The position numbers are program-made. DNA of 64,000 nt from Carcharhinus amblyrhynchos (lineage: Eukaryota), in NCBI GenBank assembly GCA_965287045.1, contig OZ336899.1:16616001-16680000 (forward strand), in the 5' to 3' direction. How positions within the stretch are numbered: the stretch's first letter is position 1; each line of letters begins with the position of its first letter. Below are positions 3,001-60,000 of the stretch, one piece after another.

Positions 3001-6000
3001 CCAAACGCAGGCAATTGAGGCTAGCTTAGAGGTTAAAAAAAAGAACGGCTTGGACAAGTTGAGCCAAAGGACCTTTTTACATGCTGTAAACCTTTACAAC
3101 TCTATGACTCTATGAGCATCTCTTCTAATGGAACAACCATCCAGTTACATAGAACAAATACTTCAGTGGCAATCCCTCATTCAACCACATCATTATCATA
3201 ATTATTTCACCCAGAGGGTTGTTGCAGTCAGGAATGAATTTCCTGTGAATGTGGTGGAGGCATGTTCAATTGCGATATTCAAAAGGGAATTGGATTTCTA
3301 TCTGCAAAGAAAGGTTACAGGGTAGGGCACTAGAGAGCCAGTGCAGATTCAGTAGGATGAATAGCCTCTTTTGTGAAAAATCCTCAGCTGCTCCCAATGT
3401 CGCAGTCTCCAATAAATATCTATGCCCCTTTGATAATTTCTGCATTATTCAAATTATTAAATATTCCTCTGACTCCTTCACTATTATCTTCCACAAAACA
3501 CTTCCATTCCAGATACCAGCACTTCTGCCTATGTAACATCAGGGATACCCTTTTCTGAAGTTCTGAAAGGTCAGAAAAATCTCAGGTCCCTGGAACATTT
3601 TACAATCTCAATTGGACAGTCTTCCCTGAGTCCATTCAATTGCACAGCAGCAGAAAAAACAGTTCCCAGGTTAATTCCTCAATCTTCTTGGAGCAAAGAA
3701 ACAGTTTTATTCCCACAGCCCCTAAAGGCTAAAGGATGATCAAATTGAAATGTACACAATTATGAGGGAATGAGATAGGATTGAGAGGAAAAACATATTT
3801 CCCAAAGCTGAGGGGTCAATAATTAGGAGGCATAGATTTAAGGTGATGGGTAAATGGATTAGGGAAGCCATGAGGAAAAGCATTTTCATCCAGAAATTAG
3901 TGGGCATCTTGAATTCATTGCCTAACTTGGTGGTTGAGGCTGAAAGACTCAAGTCACTAAAAAGAAAACTGGATCAGCATCTAAGGTACTCTAACCTGCA
4001 AGGCTGTGGACCAGGTGCTGGAAAGTGAGATTAAAATGAGTGGCTAGTTTCCCTTTTAGTCTATGCAGACTCAATGGGCTGAATGGCCTCTTCCTGCACC
4101 ATTACTTTTCTAAGTTCTATGGCTTTTCACACTGATTTCTTTAACTGGTGCCTGTAACAGTGATGCAAACTTCATTCCCAATACATACATTTGTATCTAA
4201 TGTGGTTCCATTCTTAGTGTCTTCATCATCTACCAGTTCTAACCAAACATGGCAACTGACTATAAACTCTGTTTCATCCACAGTCATTGAAGCCTCCTCA
4301 ACAGAACAAACTACAACTAAAGTCTCTCAAGATTTGTCTTCACCAAATACAACACAGTTGTCAGAAACTTGGTACTCAAATGGTACACAGAAAATGAACA
4401 TTACGTCTAATCACTCCACAATACCCAAAATCTCAACACCAGAATTAAAAATAAAACACAGTTCCACAATGGAAGTTCACTCTTCGTCTCTGACAACCAC
4501 CTACATGACTTCCACCAGCAAACATTCATCAAAAAGCAGTACGAACCCCACACAAGTGTCATTGATGACAAACACTTCCTCAGAAAACCATTCAATATCA
4601 ACAAATTTATCTTCCACGATGAACAGGTCATCAAATCCCAGTGAAACATCCACAATATTTCCAACAAAGACTGAAACTATGTCAGACATGTCGGCAACAA
4701 AGAACCAAGTCTCATCTGTGACTGATGTCTCGTCACAAAACCAATCAACTGGAACCAGTGTATTATCCACTGCCAAAAGCTTGTCACAAGCAAAACCCAC
4801 ACCAAATTATTCATCATTAGCGACTCCAACTTCATTAGAAACCAATCGCACTGGAATGGCAGGAACAGTGTCTTCATCAGAGACACAACCAACAACAATA
4901 CAACTTTCTTCAATAAGGAGGTCCTCAATAGAAACCAGTTCAAAACCACTGAGTTCATCTGCATCTGTATCAGAAAACAGTCAATTAACTGCAAAAGTGT
5001 CATCTGTAACTGAGTCTTCATCACAATACCATTCAACAATGACACAGGGAGAATCAATGACTGAATCTTCAGCAGAAACAAAGACAGTAAACAGTCCAGG
5101 ATCACTGATAACTGAATCGTCATCAGGAACATATCCAACAATGACACAGTTAACATCCAAAACTGGATCTTCAGTACAAACCACTACAACAACACCATTA
5201 GTGTCATCTATCACTGAGACTACAACAGAAACCCATTCAACAGCAACAAAATTATCTGCGAAAACCGAGGCCTCATCGCAAATGTATCCCACACCAACAC
5301 AAAAGTCAGCAGCGACATTGTCTTCATTAGAGACTCATCCAACAACAATAGTAGCATCATCAGTAGCAGAATCCTCATCAGAAACCTACTCAAGATCACA
5401 TGGATCGTCCTTATCAGCTTCGACACTGGAATTCAGTCCCACATCAACACCAGTGTCACCCATAACTGAGTCATCTGCACAATCCTATCCAACAATGGCA
5501 CAATCATCAATAAAAACCGAGTTTGCGACAGAAACCAGTCCTGCAACATTACAACTGTCATCTGTTGCTGAATCATCATCCAAAAACCACCCAACCGTCA
5601 CAGAAGTATCATTGGTCACGGAACATTCATCTTCAACACGCACAGAAATGACACAGACATCATCAGTAACTGGATACTTAGAAGAAAGCACTGCAACAGC
5701 AGCACGAGTGACGTCGATAACTGCGAAATCATCAGAATCCCGTCCATCAACAACATACACATCATTAGAAACTCAACCTTCATCAGAAAACCATCCAACA
5801 ATAACACACCTGTCTTCAATCACTCAGACCGCATCAGAAACTAAAGCAGCAACTCAAGCATCCTCAATATCTGTGCATTCGTCAGAAATGTATCCTGCAC
5901 CACGTCATGTTTCAGCAGTAACACTGTCTTCATCCGAGTCCCAGCCAACAACATTGCCACTTTCTTCAATAGCAGTGTCGTCAGCAGAAACCCATTTAAC

Positions 6001-57000: not shown

Positions 57001-60000
57001 TAAAGTGAACTCCCCCATTTAAAGGAAAGCAGTCTTTCATCACAGTTGGATCAAAATCCTAGAATTCCCAACCTAACAACACTGTGGGAACCCTTCATTA
57101 CATTGATCATCACAGTTTGAGAAGAAGGTGGCTGACTGTCACCTTTCAAGGGTAATTAGGGATGGGCAATAAATACCAGCCTTGCCAACAACACATACAT
57201 CTTGAAAATGAATGAAGAACTAATTTTTAAAACTGTCCTCCTTCTCCTCAGGCCCAGTGATCATCAAAACTCACACAAATGGTATTCGATAGATGAAGAA
57301 TATTTCAAATTTCCACATACAGGTTTGTGCCAACATGTGTTTCAATGTAGAAAATAGTTTAATAATTTCTCTGGGTGGTTTGATATAAAAAAAACAAAGA
57401 ACAAAGAACAACCCAGCACGGGAAACAGGCCCTTCGGCCCAACGAGCCCGTGCCGCCGCATCACCCTACACCTATTCTACCCTGCATGTCTACGAATGGG
57501 ACCCTACTCAGTCAGATTCAGGGAAGAAATAGTGTCAATTTGGTGGAAACCGATTAGCCTAAGAGCACATCTTTGGGGTGTGGGAGGAAACCGGAGCGCC
57601 CGGAGGAAACCCACGCAACCACAGGGAGAATGCGCAAACTCCCACAGACACAGGCCCAAATCCATGTATCTGCACAGCTAGCAGTGCTAGTCACTGAGCT
57701 GTTGCGGCGCCCGTCTATCGGTCCAGGATCAAGCACACACACCGACATGAAGTACTAGGCCACTCCTGGACTTCCAAGAGCAGCCCACGCACGACCCGCC
57801 GTGTGCATGCCCCTCGCTTGACACGAGGTGGACCTCCACCTGTGAAATAAAGACAAAAAATATTAATCATACAGCCTGCCCTTCCGGTGTCTCCCGAGGT
57901 TTAACCCTATTTAATAGCCCCTACCATATCCCTCCATTCTTGTTTCACTCATGTGCCTATCTAACTGCATCTTAAACGAGTCCAACGTTCCTGCCTCCAC
58001 CACCCTACTCGGTAGCGCATTCCAGACCCCCACAACTCTCTGCGTAAAGAACCTTCCTCTTACCTCCAAATTATACCTCCCCCCCCTCACCCTTAAGTGA
58101 TGACCTCTCGTGTTTGTACCCAGTCTAGGGAGCAGTCTCTCACTATTAACTCTATCTATTCCCTTCAGTATCTTATATACCTCTATCATGTCCCCTCTCA
58201 ATCTCCGTCTTTCCAAGGAGAATAGCCCCAGTCTCTTCAATCTCTCCTCGTAACCCAGTCCCCCCATGCCAGGCAACATCCTGGTAAACCTCCTCTGCAC
58301 CCTTTCCAGAGACTCCACGTCCTTCCGGTAATAAGGTGACCAGAACTGGACGCAGTACTCCAAATGCGGTCTAACCAACGTTCTGTATAACTGAAGCATT
58401 AGACATATGTATGTGTTATCTGCCAATTTATTTTTACCTGTCATCTAGTTTTGTAATGACTGTTTGTCCTTGGCTGTTTTATCCAAGTAGCTGTTTTAGC
58501 ATTGGATGTCTGGACAGTGTATATAAGGATGCTTTTCAATCTGCAGGGTGTCACAGCTGAGAGATGTAGGGGCTTCCTCCTGTCAACCTGACAGCAATTG
58601 ATTAAATCAGTACCAAGTAGGGACTGAGCCAGAGATCTTTGTTTTCTCTGTGGCTTTGTGTCTCAGTGGATGATACAGTCACTAGGTGCATCAGTACACT
58701 TTGAGCAAATACATCTTGCGCTTGCATCTGTCTATTGATGTAACTAGTCATGGCTGTGGTATATGAATGTGGAGATCCAACCTGGAGGTAGTTGGATACA
58801 CTTTATATCTAGCCAGTAAACAGGCATTTTCTAAGGTTGAGCAACTTTGCATTGTATCCAAGGTTGGTCAGAAGTTATGAACTCTATGCAATGAATGAAG
58901 CTTCAATGAAATGTAGGAGACTCCCTTCAGATCTTTATGCCACCTATGCTGTTTGAAGCAAAGAGATAGTCATCTACAATGGTTCACTACCTCAGTTATA
59001 ATAAATGGAGTTTTGGGTCTTAGCTAATTGTACCACAAGCCAATATATATTTCACTAATCGATTATTCTTATCAATATACAGCTTTGTTGGAAGCAACAC
59101 ATCCCTTCATTGGTCTTACCTTGTCTTTTTTGTAAGTTGTAGTGAAGCCACTAATGTGTCTAATGCATTCCCCTCATTCTCTAGATCTGAATATAGGGAC
59201 TCTGACACCAAAGCCCCTGGGAAGGAGACGAGGAAAATACAGCCTAGACGAACACCTTACATTTGAAGATGACTTGGGTTCTGGTGTTTGGAGACCAAAC
59301 TTAGACATGGTGGACACAGAGGCTGAGGTAAATTGAAGCATGCAAGGCCAGATTACCTATGGTCGTGATGATTGTTGAGGATTCAACATTGGTCCAGATA
59401 TTTGTGAGAAATCAATCATTTGATGCTGTGTTTCCTCCCTGTCAGGTACGAGCCAAGCGTCCAGATATGGTTGTGCCTATGCCCAATGGACAATGACAGC
59501 TGGTTTCAGGACATATTTCAGTTACAGGGAATTTAAATATTTAGAAAACATGGACACATCAAAATGTTCAAAATGCTTGTTTGTTCAGAGCACTACTTAT
59601 GAAATAAGGAAGATTCTACTGCTCAACAACTTACTGTCATTTAGTTTTTTTTAATATAATATTTCAGGGTTGTATTATAAAAAGCTCTGTGATTATTTGA
59701 TATGATTCATTCAAGGCCCCTGTTTTTGAAAGTTACAAGGGTCTCTGCACTCTGAATTCTCCAAAATAGCCTGCTAGCTTTTCAAAACATAAATGTTTAG
59801 GTAGATGGCAGTGTTTGAGCAGAGGTTCAATGTATGGTCAACCTTTTGGGAGGGAAGGGAACAGAGACTACTTGAAATTCCTGAAATCTCTATATGTAAT
59901 AAAAATTAGAATGGTAATGGTGTTTGACCACTCCAAGAAAAACTGCCTAGTTACTGTAAATTCGAGTGCATTGTACATCATCAGTGACAAGACCAGGGCC

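What the first reader, a model, noticed from the sequence alone, without database searches (positions are those of the whole stretch)
4218..59496. A ~13,800-aa MUC3/17-type membrane mucin with a single ~40.4-kb coding exon
Seen: a 40-kb stop-free frame spliced in phase to intact SEA, EGF, TM and tail exons. Knowledge, recalled and not checked: the largest well-known human coding exons (MUC16, TTN, AHNAK) are roughly 17-22 kb, and mammalian MUC17 is about a third of this length. Inference: this is among the largest vertebrate coding exons and tethered mucins. It would give a micrometre-scale glycocalyx brush and place the MUC3/12/17 architecture in cartilaginous fish. Gene predictors usually break such genes.
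Basis: partly seen in the sequence, partly recalled or inferred. Interest (0 to 1): 0.85.

Follow-up and report, generated by a model that had tools for sequence, protein, structure and literature searches.

The report
Giant shark membrane mucin gene
This is a real shark gene for a cell-surface mucin whose sugar-carrying part is written in one 40-kb exon; it is very large, but human genes of the same family are already known to be as large or larger.

Summary
One stop-free frame runs 4145..44701. From an AG acceptor at 4218 it forms a 40,410-nt exon that splices in phase, GT-AG throughout, to eight small exons ending at the stop codon at 59494-59496. That gives 13,796 codons in the window. The signal-peptide exon was not found.

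The big exon is 46% Ser+Thr. It is a nested repeat: a 17-aa period, 340/352-aa halves, a 692-aa (2076-nt) unit present 17 times at 98.9-100% identity, and a 4-unit superblock.

Each small exon matches shark, sawfish and chimaera proteins collinearly. Those proteins carry EGF, SEA (Pfam and fold), EGF, a membrane span and a conserved tail.

A profile of them hits mammalian MUC12, MUC17 and MUC3A at E 1e-16 to 1e-23. No MUC13, MUC1 or MUC16 name appeared among the 30 clusters I looked up. In a tree the shark gene sits in a separate clade, with teleost and frog genes, sister to the true MUC3/12/17 clade. It has no PDZ-binding end.

Human MUC3B exon 2 is 39,267 bp, and MUC12 alleles reach 23,080 aa.

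Verdict: a new member of a known kind. Array length, expression and synteny could not be tested.

The parts
4218..44627 (+). Giant PTS exon (40,410 nt; intron phase 1 in, phase 1 out). It ends with EGF-like domain 1.
   Evidence: The frame is stop-free. The acceptor is AG and the donor GT. Composition is S 26%, T 20%, P 6.7%. S+T make up 6,206 of 13,469 residues, and all 8 Cys lie in the last 46 residues. The last 458 aa are 66% identical to Scyliorhinus P0002 residues 128-561. A weak hEGF match (E 0.064) falls at the end.
5924..43252 (+). Higher-order tandem array inside the big exon. It holds 17 full 2076-nt (692-aa) units plus half-unit irregularities. Diverged copies lie at 4869-5923.
   Evidence: Autocorrelation peaks at 2076, 4152, 1020/1056 and 51 nt. 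BLAST of one unit finds 17 full copies at 98.9-100% identity. Unit pairs differ at 0-33 of 2,060 nt, with a 4-unit (8304-nt) superperiod. The longest exact repeat is 4,458 nt. The two 3096-nt end blocks differ at 50 sites.
45627..45748 (+). SEA exon a (122 nt, phase 1 to 0)
   Evidence: 67.5% identical to P0002 residues 564-603.
47072..47136 (+). SEA exon b (65 nt, phase 0 to 2)
   Evidence: 95% identical to P0002 residues 604-624.
50782..50981 (+). SEA exon c (200 nt, phase 2 to 1). It begins with the G-S autocleavage-type site (AGSIIANS...).
   Evidence: 89% identical to Mustelus P0001 and 77% to P0002 residues 627-691. G-S is invariant in the 15-sequence alignment A2.
51435..51597 (+). Cys-rich linker and first part of EGF-like domain 2 (163 nt, phase 1 to 2)
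   Evidence: 75% identical to P0001 and 62% to P0002 residues 693-745. The cysteines align with invariant Cys columns of A1 and A2.
55536..55700 (+). End of EGF-like 2, the transmembrane helix and the basic stop-transfer residues (165 nt, phase 2 to 2)
   Evidence: The translation holds a hydrophobic run of about 26 residues followed by CRRKRF. It is 89% identical to P0001 and 81% to P0002 residues 747-799.
57252..57322 (+). Cytoplasmic tail exon 1 (71 nt, phase 2 to 1). It carries the conserved WYSIDEEYF-type motif.
   Evidence: I found it by comparison with P0002 and P0003. It is 86% identical to P0001 and 73% to P0002 residues 803-824. It is needed to keep the frame.
59185..59327 (+). Cytoplasmic tail exon 2 (143 nt, phase 1 to 0)
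   Evidence: 90% identical to P0002 residues 837-875.
59446..59496 (+). Last coding exon with the TGA stop at 59494-59496. The first AATAAA/ATTAAA lies about 400 nt downstream.
   Evidence: 69% identical to P0002 residues 876-891, which is that protein's own C-terminus. Poly(A)-signal positions are.
53961..55271 (-). Reverse-transcriptase ORF of a LINE in the intron before the TM exon. It is not part of the gene product.
   Evidence: Pfam RVT_1, E 7e-36, 124 bits.

Best explanation
The locus encodes a type I transmembrane (tethered) mucin of a shark.

Shown by the sequence and by homology:
- One exon of 40.4 kb encodes about 13,400 residues of Ser/Thr-rich repeats.
- It is followed by EGF-like 1, an SEA domain with the invariant G-S site, a Cys-rich linker with EGF-like 2, one membrane helix and a cytoplasmic tail of about 96 residues with conserved motifs.

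Inferred from what is established for SEA mucins:
- The repeats are densely O-glycosylated in the Golgi and stiffen into a bottle-brush rod.
- The SEA domain cleaves itself between G and S during folding, and the two chains stay together non-covalently.
- The result is a shear-releasable glycocalyx on an epithelial surface such as gut, gill or skin.

Scaling from the figure quoted for MUC17 (a 4,073-aa PTS domain extending up to 1 um) gives a rod of roughly 3 um.

The array grew by unequal crossing-over or gene conversion at several nested scales (17 aa, 340/352 aa, 692 aa, 2,768 aa). It is kept in frame, but its sequence drifts neutrally.

The gene belongs to a vertebrate clade, here called B (chondrichthyans, teleosts, anurans), that is sister to the clade holding mammalian MUC3A, MUC12 and MUC17.
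For: - Open frame, splice sites and phases.
- Composition and repeat hierarchy.
- Frame maintenance: all 17 unit starts are in the same codon phase, and one unit runs 2,073 nt instead of 2,076, a 3-nt difference.
- Variation between units is neutral: 18 synonymous and 49 nonsynonymous distinct variant codons, pN/pS 0.99.
- Gene model: all nine exon translations lie collinearly on catshark protein P0002 at 62-95% identity.
- SEA by Pfam: 33.2 bits against a cut-off of 26.4 in P0002, and 25.8 bits in P0003.
- SEA by fold: the AlphaFold model of orthologue P0004 has block-mean pLDDT of 78-94 over about residues 21-150, with beta-alpha-beta-beta-alpha-beta order. All 6 PDB fold matches with E<=0.001 are entries of SEA-domain proteins: TMPRSS6, MUC16 and a mouse transmembrane protease.
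- SEA by profile against PDB sequences: the best hits are the TMPRSS11D non-catalytic chain (E 0.0035) and ADGRF1.
- G-S and 8 cysteines are invariant across 15 sequences that include Bos MUC12 and Elephantulus MUC17.
- A profile of the orthologues finds 606 proteins at E<=1e-3. They include Bos mucin-12 (2.2e-23), Elephantulus mucin-17 (9.3e-19) and mucin-12 (2.2e-16), Sigmodon Muc3 (9.3e-17) and Balaenoptera mucin-3A (6.3e-16).
- Of 30 clusters looked up, 17 carry mucin-3A/3B/12/17 names and 0 carry mucin-13, -1 or -16.
- Atlas look-alikes of P0004 are 'Mucin-12 family' (0.97), 'mucin-12' (0.96) and 'Mucin-3B' (0.94). This is a lead only.
- Tree: clades A, B and C each have 100% ultrafast bootstrap. 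B+C is split from A plus hagfish at 99/96.
- MUC17 length figure: passages of PMC13643018.
Against: - Exon by exon, no Pfam family reached its cut-off, and SEA was not listed for any of the 7 exon pieces. The SEA call for the window rests on orthologues.
- No signal peptide or first exon was found, so secretion is inferred from the architecture.
- There are no reads. With 17 units at 98.9-100% identity and 8.3-kb superblocks differing at about 10 sites, the array length could be mis-assembled.
- There is no RNA evidence, so expression and the use of the whole exon are unproven.
- Pro is only 6.7% and Glu 8.7%, which is less Pro than the ~12% quoted for MUC17.
- Direct pairwise matches of single exons to mammalian mucins are weak. 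The best are 1.8e-5 and 6e-4.
- No MUC13, MUC1 or MUC16 sequence was in the tree, so the exclusion of MUC13 is indirect.
- The internal order of clade B does not follow the species tree and is unsupported (47/23).
Confidence: 0.8

Rival explanations
1. The gene is real, but the 40-kb length is an assembly artefact. The near-identical units were over-expanded (for example both haplotypes laid in tandem) or collapsed, so the true exon differs substantially in size.
For: Units are 98.9-100% identical. Units 4 and 8 and units 16 and 17 are identical over 2,060 nt. The order of unit types a-b-c-d, a-b-c-d, a-b-d looks like block duplication. Identity at lag 8304 is 99.6-100% over about 6-16 kb. No read data could be consulted.
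Against: There are no N or gap characters in the window. The longest exact repeat is only 4,458 nt, and 69 variable columns mark the units, so accurate reads longer than about 5 kb could anchor every unit. The superblocks still differ at 0-6 sites per unit. The same nested pattern is what unequal crossing-over produces. Human relatives are documented at similar or greater length (PMC9578598 and PMC13345508, passages).
Confidence: 0.2
2. The locus is not expressed as modelled. It could be a pseudogene or silent copy, or the mature mRNA could remove much of the array through internal splice sites, giving a far shorter protein.
For: There is no transcript evidence. The first exon and signal peptide were not found. 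Variation between units is neutral, pN/pS 0.99.
Against: There is not one stop in 13,469 codons, against 217-2460 in the other frames. The only length difference among the regular units is 3 nt. All eight downstream exons are intact with canonical sites. The invariant G-S and cysteines are conserved. Neutral drift within PTS repeats is normal for expressed mucins (established knowledge, recalled).
Confidence: 0.1
3. The C-terminal cassette is of MUC13 type rather than MUC3/12/17 type. MUC13 also has EGF and SEA modules and is the SEA mucin classically reported in fish.
For: PMC1552070 (passages) reported Muc13 and a MUC1-like gene, but no MUC3/12/17, in Fugu. No MUC13 sequence could be obtained for the tree. 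Clade B is separate from the mammalian MUC3/12/17 clade.
Against: 0 of 30 looked-up clusters among the best 150 profile hits are named mucin-13, while 17 carry MUC3/12/17 names, including the teleost members of clade B. The Atlas neighbours shown are mucin-12, mucin-3B and mucin-3A clusters, none mucin-13. B is sister to C at 99/96. These names are automatic labels, not tests.
Confidence: 0.05

Closest known systems
Human MUC3B and MUC3A (7q22 membrane mucins)
   Same: One giant PTS exon: 39,267 bp (13,089 aa) in MUC3B and 15,873 bp in MUC3A. They have a 17-aa basic repeat plus longer imperfect repeats, an SEA domain, a TM span and a tail (PMC9578598, passages). The shark exon is 40,410 nt with a 17-aa basic period. 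Balaenoptera mucin-3A is hit by the shark-family profile at 6.3e-16.
   Different: The shark gene lies in sister clade B, not in the MUC3/12/17 clade. Its repeat hierarchy is a 692-aa unit at about 99% identity, not hundreds of perfect 17-mers. It has no class I PDZ end. Whether the shared 17-aa period reflects common descent cannot be tested in such low-complexity sequence.
Human MUC12
   Same: Same architecture and extreme exon size. Alleles run from 4,677 to 23,080 aa, and the preprint calls the exon the largest in the human genome (PMC13345508, passages). Bos mutus mucin-12 is the best mammalian profile hit found, at 2.2e-23.
   Different: It is a different clade. Single exons show only weak pairwise similarity.
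MUC17 (mouse Muc3(17))
   Same: PTS, EGF, SEA, EGF, TM and tail. It forms a glycocalyx of about 1 um from a 4,073-aa PTS domain (PMC13643018 and PMC12172626, passage and abstract). NCBI names the sawfish and whale-shark orthologues 'mucin-17'.
   Different: The shark PTS is about 3.3 times longer and has less Pro (6.7% against ~12%). The tail lacks the PDZK1-type class I motif.
Existing chondrichthyan gene models (Mustelus asterias LOC144510246, Scyliorhinus torazame scyTo_0020580, Chiloscyllium punctatum chiPu_0013515, Heptranchias perlo 'IMPG2', Pristis pectinata 'mucin-17', Rhincodon typus 'mucin-17', Callorhinchus milii 'mucin-3A')
   Same: They are orthologues of the window's gene: 42-95% identity exon by exon, collinear, with the same tail.
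   Different: All are 194-891 aa and lack the array, or contain only its last part. The window gives the first view of the full PTS exon that I could find.
MUC13
   Same: A small SEA mucin with EGF modules that is reported in fish (PMC1552070, passages).
   Different: No protein named mucin-13 appeared among the 30 clusters looked up. MUC13 has no VNTR exon in the human CHM13 assembly (PMC13345508, passage). The comparison is indirect, because no MUC13 sequence was in hand.

Membership tests
Mucin (PTS-domain glycoprotein) | A long domain rich in Ser, Thr and Pro, built of tandem repeats and encoded in one large exon | tested here: met
   S+T make up 46% of 13,469 residues and P 6.7%. The repeats are nested. 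The single exon is 40,410 nt. Pro is on the low side.
Mucin (PTS-domain glycoprotein) | Dense O-glycosylation of the PTS domain | not testable with these tools
   This needs biochemistry or glycoproteomics.
SEA-type transmembrane mucin | SEA domain next to the membrane | tested here: met
Not detectable exon by exon. It is met through orthologues at 67-95% identity to exons E3-E5: Pfam SEA at 33.2 bits against a 26.4 cut-off in P0002, and an SEA fold for P0004 with all 6 fold matches at E<=0.001 in entries of SEA-domain proteins.
SEA-type transmembrane mucin | G-S[V/I][V/I] autocleavage motif in the beta2-beta3 hairpin | tested here: met
   E5 begins A-G-S-I-I-A. G-S is invariant in 15 of 15 aligned sequences. 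In the model it lies between strands 74-83 and 87-96. Cleavage itself was not tested.
SEA-type transmembrane mucin | Single-pass membrane anchor and cytoplasmic tail | tested here: met
   A hydrophobic run of about 26 residues followed by basic residues lies in E7. The model of P0004 has a helix at 225-257. The tails of full-length shark, sawfish and chimaera orthologues are 93-96 aa.
SEA-type transmembrane mucin | N-terminal signal peptide | tested here: inconclusive
   No candidate exon was found in 1..4217 by a crude hydrophobicity and donor scan. TE debris fills 2680-4028. All homologue models start inside the PTS. The exon is probably upstream of the window.
MUC3/MUC12/MUC17 family | EGF - SEA - EGF cassette between the PTS domain and the membrane | tested here: met
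   EGF-like 1 sits at the end of E2 (hEGF E 0.064; an EGF-type alignment of the orthologue to Notch). EGF-like 2 spans E6/E7 (Pfam EGF E 0.025 in P0003). The Cys columns are invariant together with Bos MUC12 and Elephantulus MUC17. The individual EGF scores are below the curated cut-offs.
MUC3/MUC12/MUC17 family | Sequence kinship: groups inside the clade of MUC3A, MUC12 and MUC17 | tested here: not met
   Significant homology exists (profile E 1e-16 to 1e-23 to mammalian members). In the 38-row tree, however, the shark orthologues fall in sister clade B, and clades B and C each have 100% bootstrap. No MUC13, MUC1 or MUC16 rows were available.
MUC3/MUC12/MUC17 family | Class I PDZ-binding C-terminus (S/T-x-hydrophobic), as stated for MUC3A/B, MUC12 and MUC17 in PMC13643018 | tested here: not met
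   The window's protein ends ...PNGQ. In clade B, 1 of 12 models ends in such a motif, and that one is the truncated Mustelus model. In clade C, only 3 of 16 gene models do, so predicted C-termini are an unreliable yardstick.
MUC3/MUC12/MUC17 family | Position in the ACHE - MUC cluster - TRIM56 - SERPINE1 block (PMC9578598) | not testable with these tools
   The window holds only this gene plus about 4 kb of flank on each side. No neighbouring gene was recognised.

The most novel reading that the evidence does not exclude
Clade B is an unrecognised, ancient family of SEA membrane mucins. It arose before the split of cartilaginous and bony vertebrates. It is retained in sharks, rays, chimaeras, teleosts and frogs, and it was not seen in amniotes in this sample.

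It has its own conserved cytoplasmic signalling or trafficking motifs (the WYSIDEEYF-type and VWRPNLD-type boxes) in place of a PDZ end.

In this reading, multi-micrometre glycocalyx brushes built from single exons of about 40 kb are an ancestral capacity of the whole MUC3-like superfamily, not a primate or mammalian speciality. [quoted passage not shown]
Probability: 0.45. Interest if true: 0.55.

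Novelty: new member of a known kind. Interest (0 to 1): 0.4.

Why it matters
- It gives a complete view of the PTS exon of a cartilaginous-fish membrane mucin. Current gene models for its orthologues in seven species are truncated to 194-891 aa.
- It shows that exon and protein sizes of the human MUC3B/MUC12 class exist outside mammals.
- The clean four-level repeat hierarchy is a useful natural example of how such arrays grow while staying in frame.
- The tree suggests that the MUC3-like mucins comprise at least three old vertebrate clades. 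This bears on when the enterocyte-type glycocalyx arose.
- None of this overturns present understanding of mucins.

Tried and rejected
- Tandem Repeats Finder at its period limit of 500 did not report the array. Autocorrelation and BLAST of one unit did.
- Pfam exon by exon gave no SEA hit and only sub-threshold EGF and TM-like hits.
- My first tail model, joining the TM exon directly to 59185, gives an immediate stop. I rejected it once the orthologues revealed the 71-nt exon at 57252-57322.
- A single-sequence search of PDB sequences found only weak EGF matches. The profile search reached SEA-containing chains only weakly.
- The third word-index homologue search, with alignment A2, was swamped by low-complexity candidates. 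It returned 10 proteins among 8,000 scored and no MUC13.
- The scan for a signal-peptide exon upstream found nothing. The in-frame ATG at 4163 is followed by a poorly hydrophobic stretch with no Lys or Arg, so I do not take it as the start.
- Rfam at gathering thresholds gave 0 matches in the window.
- Lang et al. 2016 (PMC4948705, passages) deals with gel-forming mucins and says nothing about MUC3/12/17 in sharks.
- A full-text search for 'transmembrane mucin' + 'shark' + 'SEA domain' returned 4 papers, all MUC1 reviews by title. I therefore found no published description of this gene family in cartilaginous fish.
- The genome-contig collection was not used because it holds only bacteria and archaea.
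- Supplementary files were not seen. The S1 file of PMC9578598 and the tables of PMC13345508 may hold further exon sizes.
- No complex prediction was run, because no binding claim is made.

Full report
**Observation**

The window (64,000 nt, no N) holds one exceptional frame. Read stop to stop it runs 4145..44701 on the + strand, 13,518 codons. Nothing else exceeds 469 codons.

The other five frames have 217 to 2,460 stops.

Because the region is repetitive, I counted only non-redundant sequence: the 5' part, one unit and the 3' part, 1,718 codons. At the region's own base composition the chance of an open frame is about 1e-38. The open frame is real and not a product of chance.

**Gene model**

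The big exon has an AG acceptor with a pyrimidine tract at 4217/4218 and a GT donor at 44628. Eight small exons follow:

| Exon | Coordinates |
|---|---|
| E3 | 45627-45748 |
| E4 | 47072-47136 |
| E5 | 50782-50981 |
| E6 | 51435-51597 |
| E7 | 55536-55700 |
| E7b | 57252-57322 |
| E8 | 59185-59327 |
| E9 | 59446-59496 |

- All borders are AG/GT, and the intron phases chain correctly (1, 0, 2, 1, 2, 2, 1, 0).
- None of the small exons has an internal stop. TGA closes the frame at 59494-59496.
- My first attempt lacked the 71-nt exon at 57252 and ran into a stop. Shark orthologue proteins showed where the missing tail piece lay.
- The first exon with the signal peptide was not found in the 4.2 kb upstream. 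That stretch is largely transposon debris. The protein is therefore incomplete at its N-terminus.
- I did not build, search or fold a joined protein. What that leaves open is stated under the SEA domain below.

**The array**

The exon translation is 26% Ser, 20% Thr, 8.7% Glu and 6.7% Pro. All eight cysteines lie in its last 46 residues.

Autocorrelation shows nested periods of 51 nt (17 aa), 1020/1056 nt and 2076 nt. Further details:

- The 692-aa unit is made of two halves that are 64% identical at the protein level.
- BLAST of one unit finds 17 full copies from 5924 to 42216 at 98.9-100% identity. An older, diverged stretch lies at 4869-5923, and there are half-unit irregularities near 39-43 kb.
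- Units fall into types that recur every four units (8,304 nt). Units 1/5/9, 2/6/10, 3/7 and 4/8/11 differ at 0-6 of 2,060 positions.
- Identity at lag 8304 is 99.6-100% over about 6-16 kb.
- The last two 3,096-nt blocks differ at 50 positions.
- All units start in the same codon phase. One unit runs 2,073 nt instead of 2,076, a 3-nt difference.
- Variation among units is neutral: 69 variable columns, 28/21/20 by codon position, with 18 synonymous and 49 nonsynonymous variant codons and pN/pS 0.99.

This is what recent unequal crossing-over in a composition-constrained mucin domain would give.

The longest exact repeat is 4,458 nt. Accurate reads of more than about 5 kb could in principle place every unit. 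I had no reads, so the copy number stays unverified.

**Homologues and domains**

Pfam on single exons gave nothing above cut-off. SEA was not listed for any of the 7 pieces.

The 66-aa exon E5 found three shark proteins among 39 candidates:
- Mustelus asterias, 89% identity.
- Scyliorhinus torazame, 77%, carrying Pfam SEA.
- Chiloscyllium punctatum, 69%.

Further searches added Heptranchias, Pristis ('mucin-17'), Rhincodon ('mucin-17'), Callorhinchus ('mucin-3A') and a teleost.

Every exon translation aligns collinearly to the catshark protein, from the end of the PTS domain to its last residue, at 62-95% identity. This independently validates the splice model.

SEA evidence from the orthologues:
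- Pfam SEA scores 33.2 bits (cut-off 26.4) in the catshark protein and 25.8 bits in the bamboo shark protein.
- An AlphaFold model of the Heptranchias orthologue is confident (pLDDT 78-94) over the SEA region, with the expected beta-alpha-beta-beta-alpha-beta order. The G-S site sits in the hairpin between strands 2 and 3.
- All six PDB fold matches at E<=0.001 are entries of SEA-domain proteins: TMPRSS6, MUC16 and a mouse membrane protease.
- G-S and eight cysteines are invariant in a 15-sequence alignment that includes Bos MUC12 and Elephantulus MUC17.

The SEA assignment for the window therefore rests on close orthologues, not on a direct hit of the window's own joined sequence.

**Family placement**

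A profile of the chondrichthyan proteins plus one teleost, scored against 1.84 billion representatives, gave 606 hits at E<=1e-3 and 54 at E<=1e-30. I looked up names for 30 clusters:

| Names | Clusters (of 30) |
|---|---|
| mucin-3A/3B/12/17 or Muc3 | 17 |
| 'mucin-4(-like)' | 5 |
| uninformative | 8 |
| mucin-13, -1 or -16 | 0 |

Mammalian members score 1e-16 to 1e-23. These names are automatic labels.

I built a maximum-likelihood tree of all 30 looked-up proteins plus the eight orthologue rows (38 rows, 458 columns, hagfish as outgroup). It resolves three clades, each with 100% ultrafast bootstrap:

- **A** (9 rows): shark and chimaera paralogues, lungfish and amphibians.
- **B** (12 rows): the window's orthologues in five sharks, a sawfish and a chimaera, plus three teleost 'mucin-3B-like' genes and two anuran genes.
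- **C** (16 rows): mammalian MUC3A, MUC12 and MUC17, plus reptiles, amphibians and the coelacanth.

B and C together are split from A plus hagfish at 99/96.

So the shark gene is the nearest non-member relative of the MUC3/12/17 clade, not a member of it. Amphibians keep both B and C. Caveats:

- The rows were chosen by me from the best 150 of 606 hits.
- No MUC13, MUC1 or MUC16 sequence could be obtained.
- The order inside B is unresolved (47/23).
- C sits on a long stem.

The window's protein ends without a class I PDZ motif. The review PMC13643018 (passages) says MUC3A/B, MUC12 and MUC17 all have one. Among gene models, however, only 3 of 16 in clade C end that way, so this test is weak. 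Synteny with ACHE, TRIM56 and SERPINE1 (PMC9578598) cannot be judged from this window.

**Mechanism**

Shown: the domain order, the invariant cleavage-site residues, the membrane helix and the conserved tail boxes.

Inferred from established knowledge of SEA mucins:
- Signal-peptide-directed entry into the ER.
- SEA autoproteolysis at G-S during folding.
- Dense O-glycosylation of up to 6,206 Ser/Thr.
- Display as a non-covalent heterodimer whose outer chain can be shed under force.

By proportion to the quoted MUC17 figure (4,073-aa PTS, up to 1 um; PMC13643018), the rod would reach about 3 um.

**Comparison with the literature**

- PMC9578598 (passages read) gives human MUC3B exon 2 as 39,267 bp (13,089 aa) with a 17-aa repeat.
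- The preprint PMC13345508 (passages read) reports MUC12 alleles of 4,677-23,080 aa and calls its exon the largest in the human genome.
- The shark exon is thus in the top class but is typical of the upper range of its own superfamily.
[quoted passage not shown] PMC1552070 (2006) states that MUC3/12/17 seemed absent from fishes.
- The present data, and the NCBI names on fish models, show close relatives in cartilaginous and ray-finned fishes, although in a sister clade.
- A full-text search for transmembrane mucin + shark + SEA domain found only four MUC1 reviews.

**Verdict**

It is a new member of a known kind. The exact array length, expression, the N-terminus and orthology remain open.

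Noticed in passing
window 53961-55271 (-), with related fragments at 2680-3018 (+), 3774-4028 (+), 49329-49640 (+), 50085-50303 (+) and 57911-58444 (-): An open 436-aa reverse-transcriptase ORF of a LINE (Pfam RVT_1, E 7e-36) lies in the intron before the TM exon. Several short fragments carrying the same C-terminal protein motif are scattered in introns and upstream. By DNA, only the copy near 50075-50142 matched the 3' end of the ORF (81% over 68 nt).
   Followed up: partly
window 688-799 (+), 46450-46544 (-), 57566-57637 (-): Three copies of a short interspersed repeat at 81-82% identity, one upstream of the gene and two in introns. There was no Rfam match at gathering thresholds, and the element type was not identified.
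   Followed up: partly
window 46628-46961: A tandem repeat of a 69-nt unit, 4.9 copies at 76% matches, in the intron between the first two SEA exons.
   Followed up: no
window 61321-62136 and 62200-62660: A C/T-rich low-complexity block (periods 19, 65 and 109 nt) is followed by a purine-rich block. Together they create spurious ORFs of 275-469 aa in several frames on both strands. It lies about 1.8 kb downstream of the mucin stop codon, and its function, if any, is unknown.
   Followed up: no
window 4163-4217: An in-frame ATG lies 55 nt upstream of the big exon's acceptor, inside the same open frame. The following residues are only weakly hydrophobic and lack Lys or Arg, so it is probably intronic, but an alternative start was not excluded.
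   Followed up: partly
big exon, whole array (4218-44627): The basic repeat period is 17 aa, the same length as the human MUC3A/MUC3B repeat quoted in PMC9578598, although the shark gene lies in a different clade. Coincidence and common descent cannot be told apart in such low-complexity sequence.
   Followed up: no
proteins P0053, P0075 and P0082 (whale shark, great white shark, chimaera; not in the window): Cartilaginous fishes have at least one further paralogue with the same EGF-SEA-EGF-TM cassette (clade A, named 'mucin-4-like' or uncharacterised, 1,354-3,410 aa). It groups with lungfish and amphibian genes.
   Followed up: partly
protein P0004 (Heptranchias perlo, not in the window): The public name 'interphotoreceptor matrix proteoglycan 2' on this orthologue looks like a misnomer. 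The protein aligns end to end with the shark mucin C-termini and groups with them in the tree.
   Followed up: partly
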